Below, piece by piece: positions 22,460-63,752 of a stretch of 64,000 bases of DNA. Each line of letters opens with the position of its first letter. Position 1 is the first letter of the stretch. The notes beneath the pieces were generated by a model, which was not told where the DNA came from, made no database searches, and worked only from the letters and a program-made list of their open reading frames with translations. Source of the DNA: Trypanosoma brucei. Lineage: Eukaryota. The stretch covers positions 672,001 to 736,000 of the forward strand of contig CP000070.1 in NCBI GenBank assembly GCA_000002445.1, in the 5' to 3' direction. The position numbers were made by a program, and so were the translations under genes.

Positions 22460-25400
22460 AATGGTGTCCCGGTACTGTAATGACCTCTCTTCCTGGCGTT
22501 CAGTTGAAACTCCTCTATGTTCTTTTTTCGATGGCTTTAGTACTCCTCGCGCGGTCTCTCCCACTCACTGATATATATATATATATATTGCCTTGCTGAG
22601 TGCGCTTTGCTTCCTTCAAATTATGAGCTCCAACTATACGTGCGCAAACCTTGTCTTCCGGACTATTTTTTATACGAATAAGTAGCCAGACAACGTAACT
22701 AACTCTGTCTTTGTTCTTACCTTTGTTATGATGACTTGTGAACTTCCGTTAGTTGTTCCATTAGTTGAGGGCAGGGGAGATGGAAAGTATTTGAAATAAT
22801 CTCGAGGCAACCAAGTGCAAAGTAATTTGTGACGACGACTCGAACAAGTGGAACTACACCGCTGCTCGCAGTGCTCTCGATTACACACCTATTTTCGCAT
22901 TGTCGTTTTGTCGTTGTTTCAAGCCCCTTTCCCCTCTTTATATAAATATATAAATAAATAAATATATATATATATATATCTGTCCTTTGTTTTGCTCTCC
23001 TTGAAGGATCCATTAGCTGAGTCGCTAGATGACATGCACAGACTTCAAATAAACAAGTAAAAATAAATAATGGGGAATCGGATTTGTTTTTTACAGCCCG
23101 GCGGGAAAAAAAAGCCAGGAGCCAAAGGGGCAAAAAAAAAAAAAAGACGAACAAACAACGCGAGCGGAGGGCGATAAGTGCAGAATTGGCATGCATGTGT
23201 TTGCGCATATATGAAACAAAAGAAGAGAGAAGTTGATTAGATGAAGAACGGCAATACGCAATGGCCACAAAAAGTTTAATATACCAAATATGCTGGCTTC
23301 ATGCATTCAATATATTCTTCACCATTCTACCGCTTCTCTTCGCGCAGTACATATAATTCCGTCGCATGCGTACACTTCCACACACGATGTTATTGATCTC
23401 GATATTACAAGTTAACCACAAAAATAAGGGGAAGGGAAAATAAAAGCACGCGTATGCAAACACATACACATATATGTATATATCGAAAAGTTATTTTCAA
23501 AAAAATCATCAAGGGACATTTGCTTCAGTGGTCTCACATACAGTCCCTTTGTTTTTTCCCTTTTCCGCAGTGATTCTGTTTCTCGCTTCGTCCCAACTCG
23601 TGTTATTATTTTTTTTATCTGTGTTTTTATTTGGTCGTCTCCTTTCACCTTCTATTTGGGCAAGCTGCTTTTATTGGTACATTTTTTAAATTTTTTTGAT
23701 TGTGGCTGCGGTGCCTTTTCTGTTTATTATTACTCTCTTTCCCTCACTCTTCACTCCCCTCTTCCTCATCCTCCTTAACGATTTATTTAATGCTCGCTGA
23801 TTGTGTTGAAGACTTAAAGATAATATAAAACAATAAAATATAATAAATAAAAAAATATCAAGTGAATGCTAAGGGGAAATGGTAATTTTTTTAAATTTTT
23901 TGCCTCTCCCTTCGGACTACACCACATCTGTAAAAATGCCGTAGTCCGCACCTTTCAAAGCCCAAAAACAAAAAACATATAATATATAAAAAGGAGAAAA
24001 TAGTGTCGGATTTTCCGAAAAAATAGTGCGAGAAAACACAAGTGATTGGTGGTCCCCTTGTCTTCCTTTCTGTTTCAACCATACGGATGATTTTCTCTCA
24101 CGTCGTTACTTCTGGTGTTTTTTTTTCATTTCTTTTTTTTTTTGTAAAGGAAAAAATAATGTGTGGGACTTTTCCATATTTTTTTCCATCCTTGTGAGTT
24201 TATCTTCACTTCATTACCTTCAAATCACTCTACTGGTTTTTTCCTTCAATCATTAAATAAAAACAAAAAAGAATTAAGGGGAGCCGAGGACGCAAAAACT
24301 TCACAAACGCATACAGTAATTTCTGAAAGAAATGTGCGCTCAGAGTGTGATACAAATGGCACGTTCCACACTGTCCTACATTCTCAAATGTAAAAAATAA
24401 AATAAAATAAAACGCGACGATGAGTTGAAGAAATGGTATGAATGAAAGGCAACGAAAAGAAAATGGAATTGAATAGAACGGGCGAGAGTGGAGCAAAACA
24501 AAAAAGAAAGTGTTCAAAAAGTAAGGACGCATATTTTATTATTTTTTTCCTCCCTCCTCCATCCCTCCGCAATATTCATCCCTCTTTTTACAGCACAATC
24601 CACTGTTGCGTACTTTCCGCATATAAAAGTCACGCATTTCCATCTTATGCTCCCTACTCCTCCTCATTATTTCATTGTGAACTTTCCATTTCACCTATCC
24701 TGTATGTTTCTCTCCACCACTTTTACTCACGCTGCAGGCCCGCACCCTCACACGCACACACATGTTCCTCTCCTCTTTTTTTTTTGTCTTATATTATGTT
24801 CGCTATTCATTGTTACACCGTTGTTTACTATTTGAAATAATAATAATAATAATGGTTAAAATGTACATATGTACGTATGTACATATTTTAAATATATTCA
24901 TTTATACTTATTTTTAATTCACATACGTGCTTGCATGTTTGATCTTCAGCGTTGGAGCCATATTTTTCCAATCCGCATTATCATCCGTTTCTTCCACTGA
25001 TGTTGTTTCCTTTTCTCCTCCTTTTTCGCTTTCCCTTTCGTTTCCTTTTTTTTTTCTTCTGTTACGCTCTGTTCTGTTCTGTACTTTGTTTGGCTGTTCT
25101 GCTTCACTCACCATCATGAAACCAAAGTTGCTCCACTTATTTCGTTTCACCTCTGCAAAATGTAAATAAATAAATAAATTTTCTTATTTGAGTTCAGTCA
25201 TACCAGATGAATTACTGATTTAAAACGAATTTGGCCAACAAATGCCTGCCCGTCTCCCACATACTCACGCACATATACGAACATACGCAGTTGCCTTAGT
25301 ATATATTTTGTCCACACACTCTTCTTCTTTCTTCTTTTTTTTGTTTTGTTTTTGCCATTTGCTTTACTTTTTTTTTTCAAAAAAAAACTATTTGCTCTCT

Positions 25401-25608
25401 TCATTGCATACACCCACCTATACACAATACATATATATATATATTAGTTTGCACCTGTATGTGGATTTAATTCGACACAATATAATTTATTACTTTCACT
25501 CTTCTCCCTGTCTGTACTCGTCACCAAATCGCTCGCTTCGCCGGATGCCGCTGTTGCCATTGAAATTAATATTTTATATCCTTTTCTTTCTTGTCTTATC
25601 CCCCCGTC

Positions 25609-25633
25609 CACACACACACACACACACACACAC
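25609..25633. repeat. (CA)12 microsatellite
   Basis: tccacacacacacacacacacacacacacc seen directly. Similar (CA)/(TG) tracts occur at about 7729, 11465 and 11813. Confidence 0.8.
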
Positions 25634-28600
25634 CACCCTGCCACAAAATGCATCCCACACACAAAAAAAAAACAAAAAAAAAAAGAAAACACGAAAAAAG
25701 AAAAAGGGAGAGAGCGACCCCGATAATTAAAGTTAAAATCATTTTTAAAAAAAAAGGAGTAAGACAGAAACACAAACATAAACATAATCCTGCATTATGC
25801 GCCTAAGGCCGTATTCGTCCATGATATGGAATATTATGGAGGAGGGAAGGAAAAACAAAGCAAAACAACATTCACAACAGACCAAAGCAGTTACGCACAG
25901 TAGCATGGAACCAGCGGGGAAAAGGAGGGTTTTAAAAAAACAAAAAAAAAGAAAAAGAAATACAAATGGAAAAATGAAAGAAAACAGGAAGAAACACAAA
26001 AAAAAAAAGGAACAAGAACAAGAACAGGGGAAAGGAGGGAAAGGATGGAAAGGAGGTGACTTATTCGGTCAATGACCGGGAAAAAAATAAAAAATAAGAA
26101 AAGCAAAAGAGAAAAATTAAAGAATAGCAAACAAAACAAAGAATGGAATGGAATGAGAAACGGGTAATGAGATTGGAGAGACACGAATATATTCGGTCAC
26201 TTGACACCAACACCCGTAGGGGGTAAGGGGAATTTGATGGAAATTTGATGACAAACAAACGTACGAATGACTCGCGGTCAAAATAAATAAAAACGTTAAA
26301 TGAAAAGAGGGTTAATAGACAAGAAAATAATTATAATCATAATTGTGCTAACAATAACACACCACCGATTTCATCACACCGGCCATTTCTCCCGTGCTCA
26401 CACTCATGGCTTTCAACGGCGTGGAAAAAAAAAAAGAAAATTTTAAAGTAGAAATAAAAGGAAAGGAAAATAAATGCACAGATTGCATCCACCATTTGAG
26501 AAGACATCACGTTGACTCTTTATCTCCTTGTTATTATCATCATTTCATTGTTCTTAATAATAATAATAATAAAAGGTAAAATATGAAGAAAAAAAGTGGA
26601 AAGTGGTCCTTTCGAGAGTTAATTATCTTACATCTAAGTGTTCAGACAGCATAAGTTAACCACGAATTCGATGACGAGAAAGAAAAAATAAATAATGAAA
26701 TGAAGTAGTTATTGCGTTCTTTCATAAATTTATGTATGCATATTCGATCTGACTTCATCTTCCTTAAATCTCTTTCTTCTTCTTTTTTCTTCCACCCGTA
26801 CGCTCCCGTTCACTCCGCAGGCCCCTCGACCTTTCCACTGGTGTTATCGTTGCGGTTATTTTATTATCGTTATCTTTTTGTTCCGCTCAAATGGCGAAAA
26901 GGTGGTGCGGCAAAGAACAGTCAAAGATACAAATATTTATATTGTGTTAATTTTCTTTTTGAAATATATGTATATATAATAAGGTGTGTAGAAATCGTTT
27001 GTCTTTCCTTACGTTCGCATCACGGTTTTATTCTACATGGACATCTGTCGAGGAAGCGAGATACTAACGTGGTGGGAAGGAAGAATAAAACAAGAAAAGG
27101 TGGAACAAACGCAGAACCAAACAAAAAAACAAAGAGAAAACTATCAACCAAAGAAAAATAAAGGGGGAAAGAAAAATCATTATCACGAAAAAGCTGCGCG
27201 ATCCGCGGCCCGATCCCTTTTCTTTAATTCTCCTCCCGCTCCTCCCGTTACGCCCACGGAAGGGTAAAATAAAAAATAACAAAACGCTGAGTGGCTGAGG
27301 GTGTCAAATGGGCGGGCTCATAATAATAATAATAAATAATATATATTTATATTTGATATTTGTAGAAGGGGCTTGGAAATTAATAAAAGGTTGGGAATGG
27401 AGATGGAAAAAGAGGAGAAGGAGAAGGAAAAATAAATGGTAACAAACAAGTCGAGGAAAAGAAGTAAAATAAAAGAGTTTGAAAACAAAATAAATAGGGG
27501 GAACGTGACAGAGAGGAGAACGGGAAGATTAAATAAAATAATATCCATACGCTCTCTGTTTCACCTTTCCCCCATGCACACACACACACATGCATATATA
27601 TCACTTTCTTTGCTTGCAAAATATATATCAATCCCACTGGGCAGGCCTCACAAACAACCACGTGGTAAATTTTTCTAGCATCTGTTTGGATAGCGGTTAT
27701 TATTTTTATTATTATTTGTGTGTGTGTGTGCATGTGTGTGTAAAACCCCCTCCTTCACCACCGATAATTCACCTCGAGTCTCTCCATCATCCCACTTCCA
27801 TTCCCCTCAGCCTCCTCCCACCCCCATGGCCTGGACGGCTGTTATGAAACATACCGATGATAGGAGTCCTCATCATATCATTTTCGAAGTGGGAGGAATG
27901 AGGAAATGAAAGGGAGGATGGAGGCGGCCAAAAATAAATTCAAAAAATAAACAAATAATCAATATTTATGGAGGAAGAATGCTTAAATGGAAAATAAAAC
28001 CAAACAAAAAATATACAAGTATGTAGTCAAGTAAATCATTGCTTAAAGGGGGTGACCAAAATTTGTAAACTGCACCCGTGGCAGCGAAGAGAGAAAAAAA
28101 GAGAGTAAGCTGCTTCTGGGTGTCCCTTCCTCCAAATTTTTAAAAGTTCGATCGCTCAATAGCTTTTACTTCGGTTTAAATAGCCTATGTTTCTCATTTT
28201 CCTCTTTTTTTTTTGTCGTACTTTCCTTTTGCCTTCTTTTGTTTCCGATTTTTTCTTTCAGCTTCTAAAAATTTAACCTTTGTTCAAGCGACGGAGTGCG
28301 CCTTTGAGCCTTCCGTTGCCATTTACAGCCACCAAAACCCTTCATTTCGCCGCTCATTTCTCATTCCCTTCTCCCTCACTAATCCAGCACAATTCCCACG
28401 CAAGCATCGCTGCATTTTATGTGGTGCAGCTTCTGATGAGCAAAAACAAGCCAGCAGAGAGGGGGAAACTTCATTATTCAGAACGGGCAATGGAGCCTCA
28501 ACCGTTATATATATGCGGAAACCATTAAGGGCTAAAGCTCAACGAAAGGACAACTCAATTAGCTATATTCCATTCACGGCCGCCCCCCCCCCCCCACAGG

Positions 28601-32150: not shown

Positions 32151-33593
32151 ATCGTCTGGAATCGCGATATCACCACCCCTTCTGTATGACCAATCTATTC
32201 TGTTCCTTCCTCGTTTTCTTTTCGTAACAAGTTAAAAAATAGCAAGTGAGAAAACGGGGTCGCAGGGAAACGTAACTTTACGCTGTGAGACGGCAATATA
32301 TAGGATGGAACTAGCAACTCAAACTCTCTCCCCACAAACCAACCTGTTGGGACCTAATCAACGACACTCTCAGTGTCGTGTAGGTTAACTACAAGAAAAC
32401 AGCAAAGAGGGGAAAAAGCGAAGACCCGATACTATACAACTTGGACAAATACTTTGGCGTACTGCCCCCCCCGTTCTCATTTCCACGCACAAACACGTAC
32501 ATACCGTCCATAGGGGGAAATGTGAAATAGCGAACGAATTTTCATAAACGGTCCCGTGAGAATACATCACCCACAAGCCTCACGAGGCAAGAGGGACAGC
32601 AACCACTATGAGATCGTGGCAACCTTACGTAGGCGCTGCTTGCAACACACACATTACATAAGCAGGAACTCAGTTGATGGCATGCTTACCAGATCACCGA
32701 GGAATAAATTTATATAACATCGCGGGGGCACTTTAAAGAACGAATCCACTACAATGAACGATATCAAACGTCGTGCTGCCTCACCCACTCCGTCGGCGGC
32801 ACCGATGCGGAGTAAAGGGGTTAACTATAATCCCACAGGTGGAGAGAGTAGACGCCGACCGAGCGCCACACCTTGTACAAGTATGTGGAGTATAACAGTC
32901 CTACCAACAGCCCACATGCTGGCAACTTGTAATCGTTATCACTGGGGCGTCAGAAACGATCAAAGCTCCTGGGACTCACCGAGTTGCCGAATGTGTTAAT
33001 CCTTCCTGTCAAACGAGGCATAAAGTACATGTCGTCCGGACACCCAAAGGACCTTGTAGAAAACAAAGAAGCGCATCAGCCACCGACTGGAGAGTTAGCC
33101 CCCTCCCCCCCCCCCAGCGCGGTGTCACCTTCGTGTGGACGATCTAACGCCTTCAAAAAAAAAAAATAGATGATATAATGAAACGTAGTAAAGTATCAGT
33201 GGACGAGTCTCACCCATTTTCAAATATAGTCGTCCATTGCACTTCATAATAAAACATCCCCAAGGTAAATTTAAAGGGAAAAAGCACCGATATACGCGAA
33301 TGTTTTATTCCATCAATACGGGAAAAATAAATAAGGGGTGCACAAGACAAAAGAGAAATACATTTGGTAACGATAACAAAGAAAAAGTTATGATGAAAAA
33401 CCACTCGCGCGCCCACAGCCAACCTTAAAACAAGCCACTAACGCGGATCAAAAGGCGGCATTTCATACAACATTAAGTATGTCATACAAAACAATTATTG
33501 ATTTGGTAAAGGTATGTCTTCCTCCGTGCACTCAAGCTTGTCGAAGTTTTCGGCAGCACTCGTAGAAATGTCAAGCTCAATTTCTGTCACATC

Positions 33594-34457
33594 TCAAAAC
33601 TTGTAAACCATAGCCTCTGGGTAGCCCAATTCCTTCAGATACCCACTAAGAGGACCTTGTGAACGCCCTTGCTTCTCTCCGCTGATTGTTTTCATAAAAC
33701 CTGGTGGACCACTAACAAGCAATATCGCCTTGTCAACGCAGTTAGGACTGGGCATCGTCTCTTCGATAACTTTTTTCGTTATATGACCCCTGTAACCTCT
33801 CCAATACCAAGGTGGTGACGTCAGCGAATGAAACACAAACAGCTTACCAGGGTTATCGTTGGCCAACTGACCGAAGCGATCCGCCAACAACATTTCCGCC
33901 TTCGAGTGGTTGGAACAAACCAATGAGAACTTTGTCGTATTAGAGGGCCTTCCGAGGAAGTTACGGGCAATTTGATACATTGGAGTAACACCAGTACCCC
34001 CAGCCAGCATACCAATGTGCTCATACTGACCAGACTTAATATCCATTGTCTTCCATGGGCCCTGAACTTCAATCGAGTCACCGACCTTCATGTTGTGAAG
34101 GTGCGATCCCATCCTCGAGTTGGGATATGACTTCACCAGTAACTCAAAACTTCCCTTGTCGGATTCCAGGTTCAAAGGGGTGTATGGCCGCACAACTTCC
34201 TTCCCCTTGTCGTCCACATACCGCAGAGTTATACATGATGGCGCTTCGAAATTAAGCTCCATATCCTTTTCAGGAAGGGCGAAAGTGAAAATCTTCGTGT
34301 CATGTGATTCATCCTGTACACAAACCAGCTTATACGAGTGATATACTGACTGGGAAAAGGGACTTTTTGCTGCAGCCTTGGCCTCAACCGCTCGATCAAC
34401 TTTAAAATATCCAGAGGCAACCATCCCAGTAACAGCAGCAGCTGCAAATACCTTCAT
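33594..34457 (-). CDS. NADH-cytochrome b5 reductase (287 aa)
   Basis: ATG confirmed. FAD-binding RPYTPLN, NADH-binding MLAGGTGVTPMYQ, C-terminal LLVSGPPGFM. Overall layout matches the ferredoxin-NADP reductase / b5R family. Confidence 0.85.
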   Translation of the reverse strand: MKVFAAAAVTGMVASGYFKVDRAVEAKAAAKSPFSQSVYHSYKLVCVQDESHDTKIFTFALPEKDMELNFEAPSCITLRYVDDKGKEVVRPYTPLNLESDKGSFELLVKSYPNSRMGSHLHNMKVGDSIEVQGPWKTMDIKSGQYEHIGMLAGGTGVTPMYQIARNFLGRPSNTTKFSLVCSNHSKAEMLLADRFGQLANDNPGKLFVFHSLTSPPWYWRGYRGHITKKVIEETMPSPNCVDKAILLVSGPPGFMKTISGEKQGRSQGPLSGYLKELGYPEAMVYKF

Positions 34458-34913: not shown

Positions 34914-35777
34914 CTAAATTTTAAACACCATTTTCTGTATGTAACCAAGTTCACTTAATACACCTTTGAGGTCACCCTGCTCGGCCGGGCTGGTACCATT
35001 CTCTTTATTCCCCGATATTGAATCCAAGAATGGAGGCGGCCCAGAGACAAGTATGATAGAATCCCCGACACGGTTTGGCGCTGGCATCAGCGCTTTGACC
35101 ATTTCCTTGGTAATGTGTCCGACCCCACCCATCCAGTCCGAAGGCGCCTTGGATAAAACAAAGTATGGCGAAAAAAGTGGGTATGTCTGCATTAGCTCAT
35201 TCAGTTCATTTCCCAAAAGAACGTCCTCTTTGCGAGTATTTTCATAAATCAGTGAAATTTCTGTTTTGTTATTCGGTGCCCGTAATACATTCCTGGCGAC
35301 CTGATAAACGGGGGCGATACCAGTATCACTCGCTAATATGCCAATCTTTTTATATCGATTGGATTTTATTGGTACTCGCACGAACGGTCCCTTGAACTCC
35401 GCAGCGTCCCCTTTCTTAAGGGAAAAAAGATAATTTCCCACTTTCGAATTCTGGTAATTTTTCACTAATATTTCAAAGTAACCACGCTGATTACTACTGT
35501 TGATGGGCGCAAAAGGACGCACAAGAACACTACCATCTTTACCGACGTGCCGCAGTTCCACGAATGACAATACCTCAAGGTTCAAAGACATGTCGGCCTC
35601 CGGTAACGCGAAACGAAATACTCTCGTATCGTGTGACTCATCATAAAAGTTCATCAGTGTATATTGACGGAAATCCACATGTGAAAACGGACTTTTCGAA
35701 GCTGCACAGTTCACTGAACTAAAGTTATACCAACTTGATGCAAAAGCACCCACTGCGGAGGCAAACAGAGCTTTCAT
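34914..35777 (-). CDS. Cytochrome b5 reductase-like divergent paralog (287 aa from the first ATG)
   Basis: Track ORF starts on TTG; the first ATG is at 35775-35777 (MKALFASAVGAF...). Colinear with the neighbouring b5R, but its motifs read RPFAPIN, ILASDTGIAPVYQ and ILVSGPPPFL. Confidence 0.7.
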   Translation of the reverse strand: MKALFASAVGAFASSWYNFSSVNCAASKSPFSHVDFRQYTLMNFYDESHDTRVFRFALPEADMSLNLEVLSFVELRHVGKDGSVLVRPFAPINSSNQRGYFEILVKNYQNSKVGNYLFSLKKGDAAEFKGPFVRVPIKSNRYKKIGILASDTGIAPVYQVARNVLRAPNNKTEISLIYENTRKEDVLLGNELNELMQTYPLFSPYFVLSKAPSDWMGGVGHITKEMVKALMPAPNRVGDSIILVSGPPPFLDSISGNKENGTSPAEQGDLKGVLSELGYIQKMVFKI

Positions 35778-35997
35778 GGCACCTTGCTTAAGGAAAAGTG
35801 AGGAGATATGGGGAAAGTGAAACAAAATGAGGTGGACCAAAAAACACAAAGCGCTGCAGTGTAACAAAGCAAATTGACAATGAATTCACAGCCCTCTGCT
35901 ACCCGCACAAAATTCAACGGCATTTTCACCACCAATTTTTCTTCGAGTTACGTCGTCCTTGTATGCTAAAACAAAAAAGCTGGCTCAATCGGTTACC

Positions 35998-38232: not shown

Positions 38233-39156
38233 CTACGAAGCGTTCTTTTTCCTGGAATTTCTCCCTTTTTTCATCACACCTTTTGGCGGTTGAGGCACCC
38301 TTTTCTCAAGTATTTTGTCAAGAACTCTAAAAAGTTCCTCGGGGATATCATCGTTTTGCCGAAGCCAGAGAGTGTGTAAACTGGTATTGAACTCTTTCAC
38401 ATCGCTCTCACTTTCTTGTAAACCTTCCATGATGTGGCCAAAAGAACTTTGGCGCTCCTTTTCGCTGCTCTCCGACTTTGCCGAAGTAAACTCCTTCAAG
38501 GAAGACTCTAAACCCTTTTCAGAACCAGTGTACAGCGTAGTTCCTGCAGAAACAGCATCGCGAAGCTCAGGTGAGAGCAAGTCCACAACATGTTCAAGTG
38601 CAGAAACTAGTTTGTAAGCACCAAGGAACGTCAGTCGGTTTCCACGTAAGTTTAATGTTTTAATCTTTGATGAGCTTGGAAGCGAAGAAGCGAGCGCCAC
38701 CGCACCAGCATCATGTATACCGTTACAAGAAGCATGCAGAGACTCCAAATTCCCAATACATTTAGAGGCAGCAACCGCTCCCCTATCACCAATGTAGTTC
38801 CCATTGACATTCAAGTGTTTCAAACACCTGTTACGTTTGATACACGAAAAGAATCTAACGGCCCCTTCCTCTTGCATATCACACATAGACAAATCTAGGG
38901 AAGTAACGGTGTGGTTCAGTATCAACATTCGGCCAATATTAACGCATTTTTCGGGCCCCCAAAATGTTGAGGAGCAGCACAATTTTATTCCCCATGGCTC
39001 TGGGGGGTTCAAGTATCGGTTGCAAGCTATGGCAGCCTCCTCGCTGGGTCTCAGACGCCATTTGAAACTGTTTGGAGCATCAGGGTCTGGGGGTGCTGTG
39101 CTTCCCTCAATCGTTTCAATCGCCCTCTTGTACACAGATTCAACTTCTTCTATCAT
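38233..39156 (-). CDS. Leucine-rich repeat protein, ribonuclease-inhibitor-like (307 aa)
   Basis: ATG confirmed. Repeated LxxLxLxxNxIgdxGaxaLa units (LKHLNVNGNYIGDRGAVAAS, LESLHASCNGIHDAGAVALAS, IKTLNLRGNRL). First gene of the minus-strand unit. Confidence 0.7.
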   Translation of the reverse strand: MIEEVESVYKRAIETIEGSTAPPDPDAPNSFKWRLRPSEEAAIACNRYLNPPEPWGIKLCCSSTFWGPEKCVNIGRMLILNHTVTSLDLSMCDMQEEGAVRFFSCIKRNRCLKHLNVNGNYIGDRGAVAASKCIGNLESLHASCNGIHDAGAVALASSLPSSSKIKTLNLRGNRLTFLGAYKLVSALEHVVDLLSPELRDAVSAGTTLYTGSEKGLESSLKEFTSAKSESSEKERQSSFGHIMEGLQESESDVKEFNTSLHTLWLRQNDDIPEELFRVLDKILEKRVPQPPKGVMKKGRNSRKKNAS

Positions 39157-42100
39157 TCACCTAAAACAAGTAAACAAGGAACAGAAAGAATAAATTGTTA
39201 TCTTCATGAGCAATAATAATAATAACAACAAAAGGTGGTACCCTAAGCGTAAACCTCGTTGCTCTCCACCACACATACACAGAGAAGAAAATGGCGATGG
39301 CGGGAAGCAATCACAAGATGATCTGCCTGTGGCTGACACCATTTCTTAGACCCAAGTAACGGATACGCTAAATCGACAGTAACAACAGCAAAAAGGGAAA
39401 GAAAAAGAGAGAGATCTTGTTGAGCACAACGCATCTTTTACCACTTATCAGGAGGCTCTCCCGCACCACCAAAATCCCACGACCTTACATTCCCGGCCCG
39501 ATCCGGGGGACTGGACAAGGACGAGCACGGGAGCCTCAATCATCCACTTTCCCTTCAGCGGAGACAGAGTTGTGAATATTCAAAATGAAAAACGAATCTC
39601 AAACTTGATATACAGATGCGGTCACATGCGCATGTGAGCATGAACGTCTGCACATATATGCAGGAAATGTAGACAAATATTTTGACGAAAACAAGGGGCG
39701 CTGACAGCGATTCGAGGCCACCAAACCTCACAACAAACGACTGTCGATGCGCGGAAAACGGCAAGAACCAGTGCGAACACACGCGAAACACGCCACCCGC
39801 GCCACAAGGCCAAATAGGCACCCATCCCCGGAGAGGCACGACTCGCCCAACGGATCACGGACCACACACCCTCAGGGGAAACCGCAGTTAACTAGCCGTT
39901 CCGGCCAGGTGCCAACCACAGCCGCGCCACTCAACTACCAGCGAGGATGCGAGCAGAAGAGGTCACACAAGGGGAAGGCTGTACTAACGCAGCAAGGGGG
40001 CGTGGAACGCACTTGCAATCGGGAAAGCGTCTGCATCAGCAGGTCCCCGAATGTATGCGCGCGGGTACCCAGTAACTGCTAACGTTGAACCTGTCCCTCC
40101 CCCTCCTTCCGACTGAAAATCGAAGGGAAAGGGGGTAGCGATCTCTGGTAAATGAATCGGGATACTCGAGAAACGGTCTTAAAGTGGCCAACGAAGCATC
40201 GCAGCCAGGTATGACAAAAAAGATTGAGCTCAGTCTCTCGCAAGCGCGGTCTCCCCATCAAACTTTCCGCGTACTCCACTGACAGTGGTCAGAGAACATC
40301 CACCGAGAAAGGGGCTAAGTAAACACGGTTGTGAACCCGAAACCGTATGAGAAACCATCCACAAAAATGCCGCAAATATCAAAGACAGAATTTCCAGGGG
40401 TGAGGAGCCGTGAACCCCGAGCCGCTTACAACAAGGAAACCGAAGTTGGCATCAAGCCGATTGCCCACACGAGCTGCGCCAGCAAGAGAAAATGTATATG
40501 AATGGGGATTGCAGAACCACAGTACACTGGTAATTCCAGCCGCTTCCACGTGAATCCTGGGTCCGGTTCGCTGCCTGTGTGGAGAGAGCCAAGGATTAGC
40601 GGTGCTTCCCACCTGGGGGGAAATGGTCTCCTCCCCCCTCGGCATCACACGGTGCAGGGGCCTGCCACGCCTTCGTGCGACACCGTTTGGTCATTGGCCC
40701 CTGGGTACGTGCCAGCTTGCATCCAGAAGAAACTCTGTAGCAAAAAGGAAGAAACGCTTTCTGGGCTGCATAACTGCCGCATGGGGCACGGCATAATACC
40801 TAAAATATTTTGAGAGGGGCGATAAAATACCATTGTTGGGGGTGGGGAGCAAGCAAGCTCGCAGAGGTGACACCATTCCGAACAGCAACCGTGAGAAGTA
40901 CCCTCTGTGAGTCGGTCAAAGCTGATTTCCAGGAGAATAGAAGATAACATGGAGTAGTTGCTTCCATTAAGGCGATTGTGGTTCATACCAGAGCAGCAAG
41001 CGGCAGGCGCACAGGCTTAGACGTTTGGAAAAGCAAGCTGGAGGAATTAGAAAGCAGCGGCTGCCTTCATAGATCATGAAAGAACGGCCGGTTTAATGGA
41101 TCATGGGCGCAGAATTGCAGTCCCGAATTGCCTCAAAGGGCGTCCCTACTTCACAGGATATATAGAACAGTTTCCACATAATCGAAAATTGGAAATGAAG
41201 ATGGGAAATGTGTAGCCAGGAGACTTCTTCGATCTTTGCGGTGCGACACAAATTTGTCCTCGGATCACTTCTGCTCACTGTGATAATGGACGAACCAGAA
41301 GGGGTGCCGACCGGAGCGCCGGGTATATAGGCATAGCTTCTTTGCAAGCAATCTAATCATCATTCGCCTTGGCGCAGGTATAAAAAGATAATTTCGGCAA
41401 AAAAAAAAGGGCGGCGGAGGATCCACAAAAGAAGTTGCCAAAGTGAGGGCCATCCCATGCTCTGTGTAGAGATTGAAGATGAAACCGCTAAGATCAATTC
41501 ACACCACTCTTCGACCACACAAAGAAACTTATGCTGCAGCGTATGTTTCTGGTAAATTTTTGCCTCACCTTTGTGTGAGAAGATTCAATAACGCACAAGT
41601 GTGAGAACTGCATACACGAAAACTAGTTTATAAAGCCAACGAGTGGGGAAGACGTACCAAAAGAAGTTAGTCTCATTCCAATGGCAGATCATTTATTCAA
41701 AAGGGTGCCAGGCCCCTGTATATATATATATATATATCCGGAGGAGGAGAGGCAACTTCGAGTGTCCGCAAAAACAACTTTACTCGTAAGAACGATAGGT
41801 GTTAAAGTAGATTCAAGGGGGAAAGAGCAGATGCCGCAGAAGATTAAAAGTATAAACAAGCAAAGAGGAGAGTGAGGAACCTTGGATGATACGCCTACCA
41901 GGGTTGGAAGCACTGGATGGCAACGCCAGACAATTCTTCGGGAGCTGCGAGGCCACATTGTAGAGAAACGAAGGACGAAAATACGCGAAAAGGCGTGTTC
42001 CGTGGACGCTTCGATGGCGACACCGCCATACAAGATTGCGGAACCAGCAGTCCCTCACCTCCCCCATAAAATCTAACATAAGCGCGTTCATTAGACGGTG

Positions 42101-44952
42101 TGGCGGAGTTGCCGGCAGGGGGCTTATTGTAGGGAGTCCATGCACATCCGCTACAGTGGTCACCTGTGAGGGTACTAGGCGAAGCATGTGAGCCGAAAGC
42201 GCTGTGGAAGGGGATCCGGCGCTTTGTGGAGGCCTACCGCGTTTCCCCCGCCACGTTTTTGAAGTTTAATTTCACAGGTATGGAAGAAGAAAAGCCGCAA
42301 ACCCTTTCCAAGGTTTGAACAAATACAGGTTGGAGGGGCTGAGAATCACCATTAGCTGGAAAAGTAATGTCTGAGACTTCCGCTGAAGCAGAAGTTGCTG
42401 TAGACGCCATCACTCCGGGTACAAATCGGCTTGGCAAAGGAGTTTGTGTAACACCAACGTCCCAGAATATAGCGTTGCTAAGGAAGTACAAAGCAAAAAA
42501 AAACCGGTTTTGGGTGGGGCTGAGTTGTAAGGCGGAGAGTGCTCTTCGCTTTCAGCGAATAGTAGACGGAGTGCTCACAATGGGACATGTGAAGATGGAA
42601 GGTGTGTTGAAGAAAAAGCAAAGGAAGACGGGGAAACCATCGAGGGTAGTTTCGGAAAGGACTGTAAAGACATGTGGAAATTCTGTATCCGACAAGATTG
42701 GAGGACGGAAACTGAGAACAATACGCCATTTCTTTAAACACGAGTAGGTGACACCAACCTAACTGAACTGAGGCACCGCTTCCCCTTCGCGCTTCAGTGA
42801 CTAGCAACCTACCCCTGTACATTTCGCTTGCGGGTGAATGGTGCCTCTCTTCCTCTCCTAAAAAGAAGAAAATGCTCAACGCCTGTTTGCAACTTTTGGT
42901 GGCGGTTCACGACCATTGAAAGGGTTTGCTAAAGTTTACTCCGCACTACTAGAAACCTTTTTAAGTGTTTTTTCATTCCTCCGAAACTATTTTTGTTTCT
43001 TGAGCTTACAGTATGGAAGGTACAATCCATTTTTTTCCAGCATTCACCAAGTTTGGCCGCTGTTGCAACCTATGCGACGCCGTTTCTGACAACTGTTTTG
43101 GGAGGTAGTATGTTCGCAGAAAATGTTCCTCTTTCCCCGTTGACGCCGATTGTTTCAATACAGCGGTGACTGTCACCGTGTCCTAAGTGTAACCTAAGCA
43201 GTGGCGTTGTCCTTTGCAAGCCTTAGTGGAGTTGGTTATTGAGTTGAGCCCCGGAAGCCAGTGGTGTATGTGCCGTTAACGGGCCTCTTGATTGAAGTGC
43301 TGCCGCGCGTCGTCCTTACGGTCGCCACACTGGTATGCCTTAGGTCTCCAGCTTGCTTGCGTAGTGGCTAGGGGGGCTCTGACGGTTTGAGCTCTGAATA
43401 TTGTTGGAAATTGGGTAGCTTCTCTCCCTTCCCCCGCCCCCCTCCGAGTGAGGTCGCTGCAGTTGAGCCGGCTCCCCCCAGAGAACTTGAGGTCGGCCAC
43501 GGACCCCGCCGAAGCCGATTAAAAGCCTTTCCCAGAAGGTGCGTCAGCCACATCGCGAGCGGGCGGGGCTAGCGGCAAGGTGAAAAGCAAAAAGGGAGAC
43601 GGCACAGCCAAACTTTGCGTAACACGGATAGAGACCCGGCGTGCTAGGCATCTCCCTCGGACATTTGAGGCAGAAGTATTTTTTTAGAGGTGCGGACCGT
43701 TGGTTTCCGACGAAACAGGTTGGTCTTTATATCCTCTCGCGGATGGTTAGTAACTCCTCCCAGTTGTGTGTAGCTGGTTTTGCGTCCTTGATCACTGTTT
43801 TGTGTTTTTGGTGCGCTCGGTACGCCGATCAGGAAGCCCGGAGGCGGCGGTGGTGGCAGTTTTTTCTGGGGTTGATCACCCCTTTGAAGGTTCGGGGGCA
43901 GTCTCGCTGCAACAACTGTGTCCTCAGAAAAAACGGGGTCCGGCGGAGGTTGACCCTGGCGGCAGCCTCTATACTGCTTCCCGGCCGACAGGGTGCTGCG
44001 TCATTATTGCTCGCTTTTTTTTTTTTGGGGGGGGGAATGACGTTTCTGTTTTGTCTCTCTCTTTTTTTTTTTCGGATTTAGCAGCGGTGCGTTGTGCCGC
44101 CTTGGGGTGGTTTGCCGCGTTCACCGCTTTCAGGGCCGTGACAGAGTTTAGATTGAGGTTGGGTTGCGCGCGCGTACCTCACTCTCCACTGCCCCTGCGA
44201 CGCAGCTGCCTTGCTAGTTCCTTTCCTTTTCGTTTTTGTTTACAAAAATGACGTCGCCACAACTCGGGTGAAATCAGGCTCCAGCCGACAGCCCCGCGCT
44301 GCGGGAGATGGACTCTCCGCCCCCTTTCTTTGTCTAAGGGGCGGCGGAGGCGTAGTGCCTGTCGTTGGCAGGTTGACGCGTGCAAGGGGAAAGCCGGGCG
44401 GTCTCGTTGATGTGCGCTGACGTGCGTTCTCTGGGCGCTATCCGCTCTCTGGCAGTAGGGCGCGCACCTTTCGCTCCTGCAGGAATTTTCTGTTGCTTTA
44501 AGTTTTCAACACCCTCCTCACTTCTCACTGCTTACCCACGCGTTTCTTGTGGGTTATGGATGAAAGGAAGCGGTGGGAGAACTGTAGTTATTTTATATCT
44601 GTGTGCTGCGTTTCCTATATTCTGTACCTGCAGGGCGGCGGAGGGATGTTTGAGGACGCCGATTCTCCTTCTCTTTGCCGCTACCTTGTACACTTTCAAC
44701 TATTCGCCCTTTCTGGATGGAAAGACGTAGGAAACCCCATTTCATCTGTTATGTTTTGGTGTGGTCTTTTTTTGTTCAGCACCCGTTTAGTAATTGTTCC
44801 GAATCCTTGTTTCTTCGTAGGGTGCGTCCGGACGTTTTACACTTTATATTTGTAGCCCTTCATAATTACTTGTCTGTTTCCTCGCCTCGTAGCGTAATTT
44901 GTGTGTAGTGTGCCCTCGCCGATTTGACATGCTCTCCTTCTCGAAATAGAAG
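39157..44952. promoter_or_regulatory. Divergent strand-switch region (probable bidirectional RNA pol II initiation zone)
   Basis: Every confident gene below 39156 is on the minus strand and every one above 44953 is on the plus strand. The 5.8-kb gap holds no convincing long ORF and includes a GC/GT-rich segment with G and C runs (43.3-44.5 kb; ggggggggg at about 44025). Confidence 0.6.
42367..42747 (+). CDS. Candidate small basic protein (126 aa); speculative first gene of the plus-strand unit
   Basis: ATG start at 42367, preceded by a pyrimidine tract and AG (tttcccccgccacgtttttgaagtttaatttcacag). Lys/Arg-rich product. No recognisable domain. Confidence 0.2.
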   Translation: MSETSAEAEVAVDAITPGTNRLGKGVCVTPTSQNIALLRKYKAKKNRFWVGLSCKAESALRFQRIVDGVLTMGHVKMEGVLKKKQRKTGKPSRVVSERTVKTCGNSVSDKIGGRKLRTIRHFFKHE

Positions 44953-45495
44953 ATGGAATACCAAGGTTCTCCACAGCAAGAGGAAGGCGACGCTGCGCTT
45001 GCTAAGCGCCTCCACGAAGAGTTAAACCGTTCCGAAGCCTCCGGTCATCAAGAGCCAAGTGACCAAACTGGAGGCAGGCGACAGGTGGAATGCCCTATGT
45101 GCTCATCGGTAAGTGTTGTTGTTGGTGCCGCTGATGGGGTTCAGCAGGTTTGTGAGCGCTGTAAAGCCACTACTCACGGTGGTTTTGCAAGTGGTGAGGA
45201 TAACGAAAATTATAGTATGCAAAAGCTGTTGTTGTGCAATATTTGTCAATCCTACAACAGGGTTCCAAAGGGTACATTTGATGCCATCCTCTGCGGAGCA
45301 TGCGGTAATCAATTGAAAGCTGGGGGATCGGTGACTGAGAATTTGTCACCCGAAGATACACGGGTTCGGACGCAGGAAATTCGTGTGCGGTGCCCTAAGT
45401 GTTCTAGTATTAACACGGTAGAGGCCAACACTGATGCACTTAGTGTTCGCTTTGAATGTGGTTCGTGCCGATATGCTAATGAAGTTTTTTTTTAG
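44953..45495 (+). CDS. Hypothetical protein with three CxxC...CxxC zinc-ribbon-like modules (180 aa)
   Basis: ATG confirmed. Pairs CPMCSS/CERCKA, CNICQS/CGACGN and CPKCSS/CGSCRY with 17-20 residue spacers. Confidence 0.6.
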   Translation: MEYQGSPQQEEGDAALAKRLHEELNRSEASGHQEPSDQTGGRRQVECPMCSSVSVVVGAADGVQQVCERCKATTHGGFASGEDNENYSMQKLLLCNICQSYNRVPKGTFDAILCGACGNQLKAGGSVTENLSPEDTRVRTQEIRVRCPKCSSINTVEANTDALSVRFECGSCRYANEVFF

Positions 45496-50660: not shown

Positions 50661-51557
50661 CACGACCAATGGCTGCACATGGGATGTTCTTGTCGTCCAG
50701 ACGAGCTTTTCGTGGTGTTTTCACTATTGTGACCGGGTTTGATGCTCCACCTTAAGAGGAATAAAAGAGAAGATGAGGAAAAGAAAGTGTACAGGAAATG
50801 AGTCATGAGGATTTTGGGGGAAGGTAGAAGAGAGAGCACACATCAGGTGTTGTAATGAAACCTACTTTTATTGTTCCCCACGTCGCTTCAACTTTCTGTA
50901 GCCATCACTATTTTTCGGTGAAGCCTTGCTAGTGAGGGACGATTTGAACTGTTTGTAGTGCTTATTGTAGTGTCTTCTTCGTGACTCTCACTCTGTTCCC
51001 TTTATTTTTTTCATTCTTTTCGTTGCCTGTTTAACGTTTTCCTTATTATAGTTTGCTGGTGGCTCAGGGTGCAGAGTAGAAAGAAAAAGACTTTGGCGTT
51101 AACCATCAGGCGGTCCACTCCATCGCGAGAGTGCATATACTTGAGGGTACAAGACTCACTCACTTGTTCGACAGTGGCTCGTGGTAAGGTTCGTTTCGAG
51201 CGAACTGATCTTAAGAAAGGGGGATAAGTTTGTTTGAAACACTGCTCTTTGTCCAGGCATAAAGTTAGAGGGGGTGTCGGAGCCTTTGGACGGTGGCAGG
51301 TACCAAACTAGCTGCGGAGTTTGTCGTGCGCTGTTGAAGACAGGGCTGAAAAAAAAAGTGGTGGATTGAGCTCCAACTCGTGGGGTTTACATGTTATATT
51401 TTCCAGAACAATGCTTCTTTTTTTTTTTTTGCTTTTGTGCCGCATGTGGTTGCTTTCTTTATATATATGAACAGTTTGGAACTGAAAATCATATGACAGT
51501 GAAGTTTTTAACCCACTTTTTTGTAAAAATAAAAAAAGGAAGAAAAACGTGGAGCGA

Positions 51558-56822: not shown

Positions 56823-57386
<564 letters not shown>

Positions 57387-57720
57387 ATAGAGTAACTCAC
57401 AGTCGGTCTGGTGAATATCCCGCGACCTGGAAATAGTTAGATGCCTATGCGGATCCCTCACTGCATCCCTTACGGGATTGTTGCGAGTGAGCCCGCAAAC
57501 TGTTTACTTCACTCCCTTTTTTTTCTTGTTTTTTCTTGATTGTGTGTGTTGTTGGCACTTTTGTCCACAAATCACATTCACCATTTTCTCAATAATTGTT
57601 GTGTGGCTCGGTTGTATTTATCGACAATGTGTGCCTCCATTTGTGTGAGGTGGTGCGGACTTGCCGTGTGCACACACAATGTGGTTGTTGTGCATGTGCA
57701 CGTGTCTGTGCTTCCTTTAG

Positions 57721-58296
<576 letters not shown>

Positions 58297-58629
58297 ATAG
58301 AGTAACTCACAGTCGGTCTGGTGAATATCCCGCGACCTGGAAATAGTTAGATGCCTATGCGGATCCCTCACTGCATCCCTTACGGGATTGTTGCGAGTGA
58401 GCCCGCAAACTGTTTACTTCACTCCCTTTTTTTCTTGTTTTTTCTTGATTGTGTGTGTTGTTGGCACTTTTGTCCACAAATCACATTCACCATTTTCTCA
58501 ATAATTGTTGTGTGGCTCGGTTGTATTTATCGACAATGTGTGCCTCCATTTGTGTGAGGTGGTGCGGACTTGCCGTGTGCACACACAATGTGGTTGTTGT
58601 GCATGTGCACGTGTCTGTGCTTCCTTTAG

Positions 58630-59205
<576 letters not shown>

Positions 59206-59539
59206 ATAGAGTAACTCACAGTCGGTCTGGTGAATATCCCGCGACCTGGAAATAGTTAGATGCCTATGCGGATCCCTCACTGCATCCCTTACGGGATTGT
59301 TGCGAGTGAGCCCGCAAACTGTTTACTTCACTCCCTTTTTTTTCTTGTTTTTTCTTGATTGTATGTGTTGTTGGCACTTTTGTCCACAAATCACATTCAC
59401 CATTTTCTCAATAATTGTTGTGTGGCTCGGTTGTATTTATCGACAATGTGTGCCTCCATTTGTGTGAGGTGGTGCGGACTTGCCGTGTGCACACACAATG
59501 TGGTTGTTGTGCATGTGCACGTATCTGTGCTTCCTTTAG

Positions 59540-60115
<576 letters not shown>

Positions 60116-60448
60116 ATAGAGTAACTCACAGTCGGTCTGGTGAATATCCCGCGACCTGGAAATAGTTAGATGCCTATGCGGATCCCTCACTGCATCCCTT
60201 ACGGGATTGTTGCGAGTGAGCCCGCAAACTGTTTACTTCACTCCCTTTTTTTTTGTTTTTTTCTTGATTGTGTGTGTTGTTGGCACTTTTGTCCACAAAT
60301 CACATTCACCATTTTCTCAATAATTGTTGTGTGGCTCGGTTGTATTTATCGACAATGTGTGCCTCCATTTGTGTGAGGTGGTGCGGACTTGCCGTGTGCA
60401 CACACAATGTGGTTGTTGTGCATGTGCACGTGTCTGTGCTTCCTTTAG

Positions 60449-61024
<576 letters not shown>

Positions 61025-61358: not shown

Positions 61359-61934
<576 letters not shown>

Positions 61935-62267: not shown

Positions 62268-62843
<576 letters not shown>

Positions 62844-63176: not shown

Positions 63177-63752
<576 letters not shown>

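What the first reader, a model, noticed from the sequence alone, without database searches (positions are those of the whole stretch)
39157..44952. Divergent strand-switch region: probable bidirectional pol II start zone, 5.8 kb with no confident gene
Coding strand flips from minus (all genes up to 39156) to plus (from 44953). In trypanosomes such divergent switches host transcription initiation, marked by H2A.Z/H2B.V and acetylated H4. G-tracts and GT-rich elements have been reported as the only sequence hallmarks of these start zones. This interval contains runs such as cccccgcccccc (about 43435), ggggggggg (about 44025) and ggggggg (about 40612), and a GT-rich stretch at 43640-44500.
Basis: partly seen in the sequence, partly recalled or inferred. 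Interest (0 to 1): 0.5.

Follow-up and report, generated by a model that had tools for sequence, protein, structure and literature searches.

The report
Known divergent transcription start region
This gene-free 5.8 kb gap is the already-mapped place on Trypanosoma brucei chromosome 7 where two long gene clusters start being transcribed in opposite directions; it is ordinary for this parasite, though it holds a decayed mobile-element fragment and is about ten times longer than the same gap in related species.

Summary
All credible genes left of 39156 are on the minus strand and all from 44953 are on the plus strand. The 5796 bp between them has no gene, tRNA or Rfam RNA. The window is T. brucei TREU927 chr7 672,001-736,000, and the gap lies between Tb927.7.2730 (LRR protein) and Tb927.7.2740 (zinc-ribbon protein).

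The cited sequence hallmarks are real but weak:
- GT content at 43640-44500 is 0.61, against 0.53 +/- 0.04 in gene clusters.
- G/C runs are not enriched over other non-coding DNA (P = 0.09).
- The G9 run is absent in T. b. gambiense.
- The gap diverges faster than any flanking sequence.

New details:
- The same divergent gene pair is found in T. cruzi (502 bp gap), T. theileri (688 bp) and Phytomonas (1308 bp).
- The T. brucei gap holds a degenerate ingi/RIME 5' end (40525-40729, +) at the GC-skew switch.
- T. b. gambiense carries a fresh RIME insertion at 43150-43161.

Verdict: ordinary, low interest.

The parts
38233..39156 (-). Tb927.7.2730, a leucine-rich-repeat protein and first gene of the minus-strand polycistronic unit
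   Evidence: Pfam LRR_6 at 2.7e-16. Identical in T. b. gambiense and T. equiperdum. Gene number follows from the coordinate mapping. Listed as first ORF of a 'Divergent' unit.
39157..44952 (.). Divergent strand-switch region, 5796 bp, gene-free (TREU927 chr7:711,157-716,952)
   Evidence: Coordinate mapping.
39200..40500 (-). Flank that is GT-rich on the minus (sense) strand, the presumed initiation zone and leader of the minus-strand unit. It contains the polypyrimidine tract upstream of Tb927.7.2730 (about 39390-39415, read on the minus strand).
   Evidence: GT on the minus strand is 0.596. A>T and C>G on the plus strand. The function is inferred.
40525..40729 (+). Degenerate 5' end of an ingi/RIME-family retroposon (matches RIME nt 1-208), including a decayed Pr77 hallmark that keeps CGTG at +25 to +28
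   Evidence: Smith-Waterman score 111 against 28.5 +/- 3.1 for shuffled queries. 47/77 identity in the Pr77 part. The CGTG element and its position are as described in PMC4748587. Present in T. b. gambiense and T. equiperdum.
40730..42800 (.). Core that is purine-rich on the plus strand (G>C and A>T) and GT-neutral; origin unknown, possibly further retroposon debris
   Evidence: GT is 0.489 for 40525-42800 (relic plus core); skews. No RIME-B match, poly(A) tail, reverse-transcriptase or endonuclease domain. The 126-aa ORF at 42367-42747 has no homologue outside T. brucei among 1.84 billion proteins.
43150..43161 (+). Empty target site (TTGTTTCAATAC) that carries a complete RIME of about 500 bp, in plus orientation with a poly(A) tail and a 12-bp target-site duplication, in T. 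b. gambiense DAL972
   Evidence: The insertion is absent in T. equiperdum.
42801..44952 (+).
   Evidence: The T/A skew flips at about 42.8 kb. GT is 0.575 overall and 0.607 for 43640-44500. Ten of the published TSR coding-strand 10-mers fall at 44.0-44.8 kb on the plus strand, with none on the minus strand.
44015..44035 (+). T12 G9 tract, the most conspicuous G run
   Evidence: It matches four of the published enriched 10-mers. In T. b. gambiense it reads T12 AAAGGGG.
44339..44350 (+). One of three exact copies of GGGCGGCGGAGG (the others are at 41409-41420 and 44633-44644), all on the plus strand and all inside the gap
   Evidence: Three matches against 0.09 expected in the 64-kb window. Only 1 of 300 shuffles of the gap gives any 12-mer three times. 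Two of the three copies are mutated in T. b. gambiense.
44953..45495 (+). Tb927.7.2740, a zinc-ribbon protein and first gene of the plus-strand polycistronic unit
   Evidence: 100% identical to a TREU927 protein. Orthologues in T. cruzi, T. theileri and Leishmania. Listed as first ORF of a 'Divergent' unit.

Best explanation
The interval is the divergent strand-switch region between Tb927.7.2730 and Tb927.7.2740 on T. brucei chromosome 7. RNA polymerase II starts the two flanking polycistronic units here, in opposite directions.

Initiation most likely follows the dispersed model described for this organism. It would occur over broad zones on either side of a centre, helped by sense-strand T/G richness and open variant-histone chromatin rather than by one conserved motif. 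The likely zones are about 39.2-40.5 kb for the minus-strand unit and about 42.8-44.9 kb for the plus-strand unit. Each nascent RNA then runs into the first trans-splice acceptor upstream of its first gene.

The position of the switch is ancient, because the same gene pair diverges in other trypanosomatids. The T. brucei DNA itself is young, fast-evolving filler, at least partly built by retroposon insertion.

Shown: strand switch, absence of genes, locus identity, published listing as divergent Pol II units, compositional polarity, synteny, retroposon relic.
Inferred: the exact initiation zones, the chromatin state, and the role of composition.
For: Gene layout and emptiness.

Locus identity and published status. 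Typical size of 5-10 kb.

Polarity:
- The T/A skew flips at about 42.8 kb and the GC skew at about 40.5 kb.
- Sense-strand GT is 0.60 on both flanks and 0.49 in the core.
- The published TSR 10-mers switch strand at about 42.6-43.0 kb.

Orthologous gaps:
- In T. cruzi and T. theileri the gap has the same mirror design in miniature: sense GT 0.65-0.67 in each half around a GC-rich centre.
- The divergent gene pair is also present in Phytomonas.

No sequence constraint:
- 2.30% divergence from T. b. gambiense in the gap, against 1.27% in intergenic DNA within the units and 0.1-1.5% in coding sequence.
- This fits a dispersed, composition-driven promoter (PMC5579346).
Against: - No chromatin or nascent-RNA data for this locus could be read directly. 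The support rests on a published table and on general statements about all divergent regions.
- The two compositional switch points (40.5 and 42.8 kb) disagree by 2.3 kb, so the centre is not pinned down.
- GT richness and the published 10-mers are far denser in ordinary AT-rich intergenic DNA at 12-15 kb of the same window, so they are not diagnostic.
- Focused, sequence-specific promoters have been reported for T. brucei. They could not be scanned for because that paper is not held.
Confidence: 0.9

Rival explanations
1. The decayed Pr77 hallmark at 40525-40601 is, or descends from, the working focused promoter of the plus-strand unit. Under this reading a retroposon internal Pol II promoter was co-opted, so plus-strand transcription starts at about 40.5 kb and the whole of 40.5-44.9 kb is a long leader.
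For: - The relic points toward the plus-strand unit and sits where the GC skew changes sign.
- It keeps the CGTG element at +25 to +28 in all three T. brucei-group genomes. That element is essential for L1Tc Pr77 activity (PMC4748587).
- The literature proposes that Pr77 elements accumulated in strand-switch regions help launch polycistronic transcription.
- Eight of the published 10-mers enriched on the coding strand at the 5' ends of start regions are exact sense-strand RIME substrings, so sense-oriented RIME/ingi copies recur there.
Against: - Only 47/77 positions match.
- The CCACC box at +16 to +20, whose mutation is listed among those compromising L1Tc Pr77 activity (mutant 3), reads CCGCT.
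- A 4-nt motif surviving at 61-66% identity is not unlikely (roughly 0.2).
- The relic diverges at 3.4% from T. b. gambiense, as fast as or faster than the rest of the gap.
- The T/A skew and 10-mer polarity flip at 42.8 kb, not 40.5 kb.
- Pr77 activity has been shown for T. cruzi L1Tc, not for degenerate T. brucei copies.
Confidence: 0.08
2. The gap hides an unannotated functional gene: a small protein, such as the 126-aa ORF at 42367-42747 that is annotated as hypothetical in T. b. gambiense, or a structured non-coding RNA.
For: - T. b. gambiense annotation places five small ORFs in the gap.
- There is a weak period-3 bump at 42.0-42.6 kb and another at 43.5-44.1 kb.
- The 126-aa ORF is intact in both subspecies, with only 3 nucleotide differences.
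Against: - The 126-aa ORF has no homologue beyond its own T. brucei copy among 1.84 billion representative proteins. The two marginal hits are to a repetitive phage tail-like protein.
- No Pfam domain is found in any frame.
- ORFs in the gap show 7 synonymous against 29 non-synonymous changes, and several carry stops or frameshifts in T. b. gambiense.
- T. equiperdum annotation and TREU927 gene numbering leave the gap empty.
- No Rfam match, and no novel transcript is listed there by Kolev et al..
Confidence: 0.04
3. Besides starting transcription, the gap is an ORC1/CDC6 binding site and possibly a replication origin. This is a co-function, not an alternative.
For: - The literature reports that T. 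brucei transcription start sites are also ORC1 binding sites (abstract of PMC6344857), and that ORC1/CDC6 sites accumulate at divergent strand-switch regions in Tb927.
- The gap has the poly(dA)-then-poly(dT) layout on the plus strand that one study associates with origins: A10 at 41399-41408, then T12 at 44015-44026.
Against: - The same 2026 study found no enrichment of nascent-strand origins at strand-switch regions.
- No locus-specific data were available here.
- Only a subset of ORC1 sites fire as origins (general knowledge, not tested).
Confidence: 0.3

Closest known systems
Divergent strand-switch regions / Pol II transcription start regions of Trypanosoma brucei (Siegel 2009; Kolev 2010; Wedel 2017)
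   Same: - Two polycistronic units diverge from a gene-free 5-10 kb interval.
- The sense strand is T/G-rich on each side.
- G and T runs lie on the coding strand.
- This very locus is listed as a pair of 'Divergent' units.
   Different: Nothing essential differs. The G tracts are modest: the longest is G9, there is no G10 or longer run and no G4 motif. A 2.3-kb GT-neutral, purine-rich core separates the two flanks.
Orthologous strand-switch regions in T. cruzi, T. theileri and Phytomonas
   Same: The same flanking gene pair (LRR protein and zinc-ribbon protein) in divergent orientation. In T. cruzi and T. theileri the mirror-image sense-strand GT richness is the same too; in Phytomonas it is weak (sense GT 0.54-0.56).
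   Different: - The gaps are 502, 688 and 1308 bp, against 5796 bp in T. brucei.
- No detectable DNA or translated similarity to the T. brucei gap.
- No retroposon relic was detected in them with the RIME query.
ingi/RIME/DIRE/SIDER retroposons carrying the Pr77 hallmark
   Same: Window 40525-40729 aligns to RIME nt 1-208 with CGTG at +25 to +28. T. b. gambiense has a canonical RIME with a target-site duplication 2.4 kb downstream, in the same orientation. Accumulation of such elements in strand-switch regions is a known pattern.
   Different: The relic is only a 5' fragment. It has no 3' half, poly(A) tail, target-site duplication or coding remnant. It is 61-66% identical, far more decayed than active copies.
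Focused sequence-specific Pol II core promoters of T. brucei (Cordon-Obras et al. 2022) and SPARC-bound promoters (Staneva et al. 2022)
   Same: The expected location is the same: two oppositely oriented promoters inside a divergent strand-switch region.
   Different: Not comparable here. The motif paper is not held. The SPARC authors themselves could not find those motifs under their peaks.

Membership tests
T. brucei divergent strand-switch region / Pol II transcription start region | Flanking polycistronic units run outward on opposite strands | tested here: met
   ORF strands plus Pfam and orthologue support. Kolev Table S14 lists both units as 'Divergent'.
T. brucei divergent strand-switch region / Pol II transcription start region | Primary (5'-triphosphate) transcripts start here on both strands | tested here: met
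   Literature only. Kolev et al. state that enrichment was seen at every divergent unit, and they list Tb927.7.2730 and Tb927.7.2740 as first ORFs. Read-level data were not inspected.
T. brucei divergent strand-switch region / Pol II transcription start region | Enrichment of H2A.Z, H2B.V, H4K10ac, BDF3 and Pol II | not testable with these tools
   No ChIP-seq tracks are available. Supplementary tables of two chromatin papers use Tb427v9 coordinates and do not name these genes.
T. brucei divergent strand-switch region / Pol II transcription start region | Sense-strand GT richness and G/T-run 10-mers near the 5' end of each start region | tested here: met
   - GT is 0.596 (minus flank) and 0.575-0.607 (plus flank), against 0.533 +/- 0.040 in the units.
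- 10-mer polarity switches at about 42.8 kb.
- The signal is weak: it is not higher than in AT-rich intergenic DNA, G/C runs give P = 0.094 against non-coding DNA, and the G9 run is not conserved.
T. brucei divergent strand-switch region / Pol II transcription start region | No protein-coding or Pol III genes between the two first genes | tested here: met
ingi/RIME-family retroposon (for the relic at 40525-40729) | Pr77 hallmark at the 5' end with CGTG at +25 to +28 | tested here: inconclusive
   47/77 identity to a T. b. gambiense RIME. CGTG is present at +25 to +28, but CCACC at +16 to +20 reads CCGCT.
ingi/RIME-family retroposon (for the relic at 40525-40729) | Sequence homology to the RIME/ingi 5' region beyond Pr77 | tested here: met
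   The alignment runs to RIME nt 208, score 111 against 28.5 +/- 3.1 for shuffles; BLAST E = 1e-7.
ingi/RIME-family retroposon (for the relic at 40525-40729) | 3' half (RIME-B or ingi ORF), poly(A) tail and target-site duplication | tested here: not met
   The best RIME-B score of 31 equals the shuffle level. No reverse-transcriptase, endonuclease or RNase H domain in stop-masked frames. It is therefore a 5' fragment or relic, not a complete element.
RIME insertion in T. b. gambiense at the site equal to window 43150-43161 | Complete element of about 500 bp with Pr77 5' end, poly(A) tail and 12-bp target-site duplication | tested here: met
   The element reads CCCTGGCG...A13GA8 and is flanked by TTGTTTCAATAC on both sides. 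The site is empty in the window and in T. equiperdum.
Sequence-specific T. brucei Pol II core promoter (Cordon-Obras 2022) | Defined promoter motifs driving unidirectional initiation | not tested
   The paper is not in the held library, so the motif definition was unavailable.

The most novel reading that the evidence does not exclude
The plus-strand polycistronic unit that begins with Tb927.7.2740 is launched from a co-opted retroposon promoter, the decayed Pr77 hallmark at 40525-40601. On this reading the tenfold expansion of this ancient strand-switch region in T. brucei records repeated retroposon insertions that supplied promoter activity. That would be a concrete case of the long-proposed link between Pr77 elements and the start of polycistronic transcription, a link the papers read here still present only as a suggestion.
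Probability: 0.08. Interest if true: 0.6.

Novelty: already known. Interest (0 to 1): 0.2.

Why it matters
As a start region, the locus adds nothing new. It is one of roughly 150 mapped Pol II start regions in T. brucei and was listed as such in 2010.

Its modest value is as a clean comparative case:
- The switch position has been kept across trypanosomatids, while the DNA in it ranges from 0.5 to 5.8 kb and evolves faster than any neighbouring sequence.
- This argues that composition, strand asymmetry and chromatin matter for these promoters, not a conserved motif.
- The retroposon relic, the fresh RIME in T. b. gambiense, and the RIME-derived words in a published list of start-region 10-mers show that these regions are retroposon landing pads. 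'GT-rich promoter' word lists are therefore partly contaminated by repeat sequence.

Tried and rejected
- **Hidden gene.** Tested with Pfam on all ORFs of at least 100 aa and on stop-masked six-frame translations, an exhaustive HMMER search with the 126-aa ORF, period-3 analysis and synonymous/non-synonymous counts. Rejected.
- **Structured RNA or tRNA.** ARAGORN and Rfam at gathering score and at E<=1 found nothing.
- **Dispersed repeat within the window.** Only (TA)n matches.
- **Cross-species conservation inside the gap.** blastn and tblastx against T. vivax, T. cruzi, T. theileri, Leishmania and Phytomonas loci found none.
- **A second Pr77-like site at about 43955 (CCCTGGCGGCAGCC...).** This was suspected by eye. 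In one search the second-best RIME-A alignment, at 43809-43886, scored only 30, which is shuffle level. Rejected.
- **Full DIRE or ingi remnant filling 40.7-42.8 kb.** No RIME-B, poly(A) tail or reverse-transcriptase/endonuclease signal. This is not excluded, because no ingi protein was available as a query.
- **G-quadruplex motifs.** None in the gap.
- **T. congolense and T. vivax orthologous gaps.** The T. congolense contigs are too short. T. vivax has neither the LRR nor the zinc-ribbon gene within 8.3 kb upstream of the kinase, so when the expansion happened within Salivaria is unresolved.
- **Failed look-ups.** Cordon-Obras 2022 is not held. The exact-sequence look-up of the zinc-ribbon protein found no record.

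Full report
**Observation**

ORFs of at least 150 aa that carry Pfam domains or have orthologues are all on the minus strand up to 39156. They include the LRR protein, eIF2D and two NADH-cytochrome b5 reductase copies. From 44953 they are all on the plus strand: zinc-ribbon protein, CAMK kinase, mitochondrial L22, an IQUB protein and a histone H2A array.

The 5796 bp between them contains no gene by any test run:
- No tRNA.
- No Rfam family at gathering score, and none at E<=1 other than one chance match.
- No Pfam domain in ORFs of at least 100 aa or in stop-masked translations of all six frames.
- No period-3 signal comparable with the flanking genes.

CCCCCGCCCCCC is at 43431-43442 and G9 is at 44027-44035, preceded by T12. 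The third run is G6 at 40615-40620, not G7. The stretch 43640-44500 has a plus-strand G+T fraction of 0.607, in the top 3.9% of sense-strand windows of that size in the two gene clusters (mean 0.533, sd 0.040).

**How far above chance**

The gap holds six G/C runs of at least 6, against 2.3 +/- 1.5 in shuffles. The excess is P = 0.022 against the whole window but only P = 0.094 against other non-coding DNA.

Longer G runs on the coding strand (10-13 nt) lie inside the minus-strand cluster at 8516, 14541, 28583 and 33105. No internal start is reported there. No canonical G-quadruplex motif lies in the gap.

I took the 157 10-mers that Wedel et al. 2017 found enriched on the coding strand of start regions (PMC5579346, Dataset EV1). 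They hit the plus strand ten times at 44.0-44.8 kb and never the minus strand there. Strand polarity switches at about 42.6-43.0 kb. The same words are several-fold denser in AT-rich intergenic DNA at 12-15 kb of this window. The hallmarks are therefore present but not diagnostic.

**Identity of the locus**

The LRR protein is identical in T. b. gambiense DAL972 chr7 and in T. equiperdum OVI. The zinc-ribbon protein is 100% identical to a TREU927 protein.

Poly(A)-site coordinates in Kolev et al. 2010 (PMC2936537, supplementary file 29), minus 672,000, equal stop codon plus 3'UTR length in the window for Tb927.7.2700.2710.2740.2750 and .2820. Tb927.7.2710 is named a cytochrome b5 reductase and Tb927.7.2750 a CAMK kinase in independent papers.

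The window is therefore TREU927 chr7 672,001-736,000. The gap is chr7:711,157-716,952, between Tb927.7.2730 and Tb927.7.2740.

**What is known about it**

Table S14 of Kolev et al. lists Tb927.7.2730->Tb927.7.2040 (-) and Tb927.7.2740->Tb927.7.3240 (+) as 'Divergent' putative Pol II transcription units. The text states that 5'-triphosphate RNA reads were enriched at every divergent unit, in both sense and antisense. Their list of novel transcripts has no entry inside the gap.

A 2024 paper summarises divergent strand-switch regions of T. brucei as 5-10 kb intervals holding two oppositely oriented core promoters (PMC11796357). I could not read chromatin tracks for the locus.

**Anatomy**

Fine-scale composition divides the gap into three parts:
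- From 39.2 to 40.5 kb the plus strand is A- and C-rich, so the minus (sense) strand has GT 0.596.
- From 40.5 to 42.8 kb a core is purine-rich on the plus strand and GT-neutral at 0.489.

The GC skew changes sign at about 40.5 kb and the T/A skew at about 42.8 kb.

One 12-mer, GGGCGGCGGAGG, occurs three times, at 41409, 44339 and 44633. All copies are on the plus strand and all are inside the gap, against 0.09 expected in the window. Only 1 of 300 shuffles of the gap gives any triple 12-mer. Two of the three copies are mutated in T. b. gambiense, so I treat this as unexplained, not as a promoter element.

**Retroposons**

Alignment with T. b. gambiense shows a 514-bp insertion at the site equal to window 43150-43161. 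It is a complete RIME, reading CCCTGGCGATGCCGGCCACC... and ending in a poly(A) tail. It lies in plus orientation and is flanked by a 12-bp target-site duplication, TTGTTTCAATAC. T. equiperdum lacks it.

With that RIME as query, window 40525-40729 (plus strand) aligns to RIME nt 1-208. The Smith-Waterman score is 111 against 28.5 +/- 3.1 for shuffled queries. Its first 77 nt match the Pr77 hallmark at 47/77 positions. They keep CGTG at +25 to +28, the downstream promoter element shown to be essential in T. cruzi L1Tc (PMC4748587). The CCACC box at +16 to +20, however, reads CCGCT.

No 3' half, poly(A) tail, target-site duplication or enzyme-domain remnant follows the relic. Accumulation of such elements in strand-switch regions, and the suggestion that Pr77 helps recruit Pol II there, are already in the literature.

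Eight of Wedel's coding-strand-enriched 10-mers are exact sense-strand substrings of RIME, for example TAGCATCTCA, GGTGATGGCT and TGGGCACGTG. Sense-oriented RIME/ingi copies must therefore recur at the 5' ends of start regions, and they contribute to that word list.

**Comparative evidence**

The LRR and zinc-ribbon genes are divergent neighbours in T. cruzi (gap 502 bp), T. theileri (688 bp) and Phytomonas (1308 bp). The switch position is therefore old, and the T. brucei gap is about 4-11 times longer.

The short T. cruzi and T. theileri gaps show the same design in miniature. Each half has sense-strand GT of 0.65-0.67, around a GC-rich centre. No nucleotide or translated similarity to the T. 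brucei gap is detectable. In T. vivax neither gene lies within 8.3 kb upstream of the kinase, and the T. congolense contigs were too short.

Within the T. brucei group the gap is 2.30% diverged between TREU927 and DAL972 (133/5785). Intergenic DNA within the units is 1.27% diverged, and coding sequence 0.1-1.5%. The rate is uniform across the gap's sub-regions, apart from the last 450 bp before the Tb927.7.2740 start codon, which is 1.1% diverged.

The G9 run reads AAAGGGG in T. b. gambiense, while a new G-rich insertion appears at 44339. ORFs in the gap show 7 synonymous against 29 non-synonymous changes, with stops or frameshifts in T. b. gambiense. Four flanking genes show 27 against 4. The 126-aa ORF annotated in T. 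b. gambiense has no homologue outside T. brucei among 1.84 billion proteins.

**Mechanism**

The best-supported account is the standard one. Pol II initiates divergently over broad zones on the two sense-strand T/G-rich flanks. The chromatin is presumably marked by variant and acetylated histones. Direction would be biased by strand-asymmetric composition, not by a conserved motif, and the first trans-splice acceptors define the first mRNAs.

Several findings fit a composition- and chromatin-driven dispersed promoter:
- There is no sequence constraint on the gap.
- G tracts turn over quickly between subspecies.
- The mirror composition is conserved in orthologous gaps that share no sequence with this one.

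The extra DNA in T. brucei is at least partly retroposon-derived.

The main rival is that the Pr77 relic is the working plus-strand promoter. It has the right orientation, the CGTG element and the GC-skew switch in its favour. Against it stand its decay, its neutral divergence and the 42.8-kb T/A and 10-mer switch. I give it about 8%.

A hidden gene is unlikely (about 4%). A parallel role as an ORC1 site or replication origin is possible but untested here, and the literature is divided.

**Verdict**

The feature is an ordinary, previously catalogued divergent Pol II start region, so interest is low. The retroposon relic, the polymorphic RIME, the tenfold expansion of an ancient switch point and the RIME content of the published 10-mer list are minor additions.

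Noticed in passing
window 56853-64000 (+): Tandem array of at least eight histone H2A genes with a 909-bp period, running off the window end. These are Tb927.7.2820 onward by the coordinate mapping. The bacterial-code ORF caller gives 177 aa from a TTG start.
   Followed up: partly
Wedel et al. 2017 Dataset EV1, compared with the T. b. gambiense RIME in L002: Eight of the 157 published 10-mers 'enriched on the coding strand at the 5' end of start regions' are exact sense-strand substrings of RIME, and six more match with one mismatch. Part of that GT-rich promoter word list therefore reflects sense-oriented RIME/ingi copies sitting in start regions.
   Followed up: partly
window 8516-8526, 14541-14550, 28583-28595, 33105-33115: C10-C13 runs on the plus strand, which are G runs on the coding strand of the minus-strand cluster. 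They are longer than any G run in the strand-switch region, yet Kolev Table S14 lists no internal start in Tb927.7.2040-2730. This shows that long G runs alone do not mark start sites.
   Followed up: partly
window 11000-15800, 17200-21000, 23300-28200: Unusually long AT-rich intergenic stretches (29-39% GC) inside the minus-strand cluster. They are very dense in T-rich 10-mers on the sense strand (up to 40 hits per kb) and in short tandem repeats.
   Followed up: no
window 33594-34457 and 34914-35867 (-): Tandem duplicate NADH-cytochrome b5 reductase genes (Tb927.7.2700 and Tb927.7.2710). The duplication is also present in T. theileri, but T. cruzi, T. vivax and Phytomonas have a single copy in the fetched loci.
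   Followed up: no
window 9936-10240: A 48-bp (also 93- and 141-bp) tandem repeat of about 6.5 copies inside the 544-aa minus-strand ORF at 8735-10369.
   Followed up: no
window 39157-44952 compared with L002: The strand-switch region diverges between TREU927 and DAL972 at 2.30%, about 1.8 times the rate of intergenic DNA inside the transcription units (1.27%). Only the last 450 bp before the Tb927.7.2740 ATG is slower, at 1.1%. This could reflect relaxed constraint or a locally higher mutation rate.
   Followed up: partly
window 41409-41420, 44339-44350, 44633-44644 (+): Three exact same-strand copies of GGGCGGCGGAGG, found only in the strand-switch region (0.09 expected). The two right-hand copies share further upstream similarity and lie 294 bp apart. 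The motif is not conserved in T. b. gambiense.
   Followed up: partly
L007 1-8360 (T. vivax, upstream of the kinase orthologue): T. vivax lacks both the zinc-ribbon and LRR genes within 8.3 kb upstream of the kinase. It has instead a GC-rich block (58-64% GC) with four annotated plus-strand ORFs of 109-259 aa without Pfam hits. This indicates local rearrangement or lineage-specific insertion at the orthologous boundary.
   Followed up: partly
window 32326-33150 (-) and 51052-51437 (+): By coordinate mapping these are the Kolev novel transcripts Tb7.NT.21 and Tb7.NT.24; the latter is listed as putatively non-coding, 385 nt. Numbers NT.22 and NT.23, which would fall between them and so possibly in or near the strand-switch region, are missing from the published list.
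   Followed up: no
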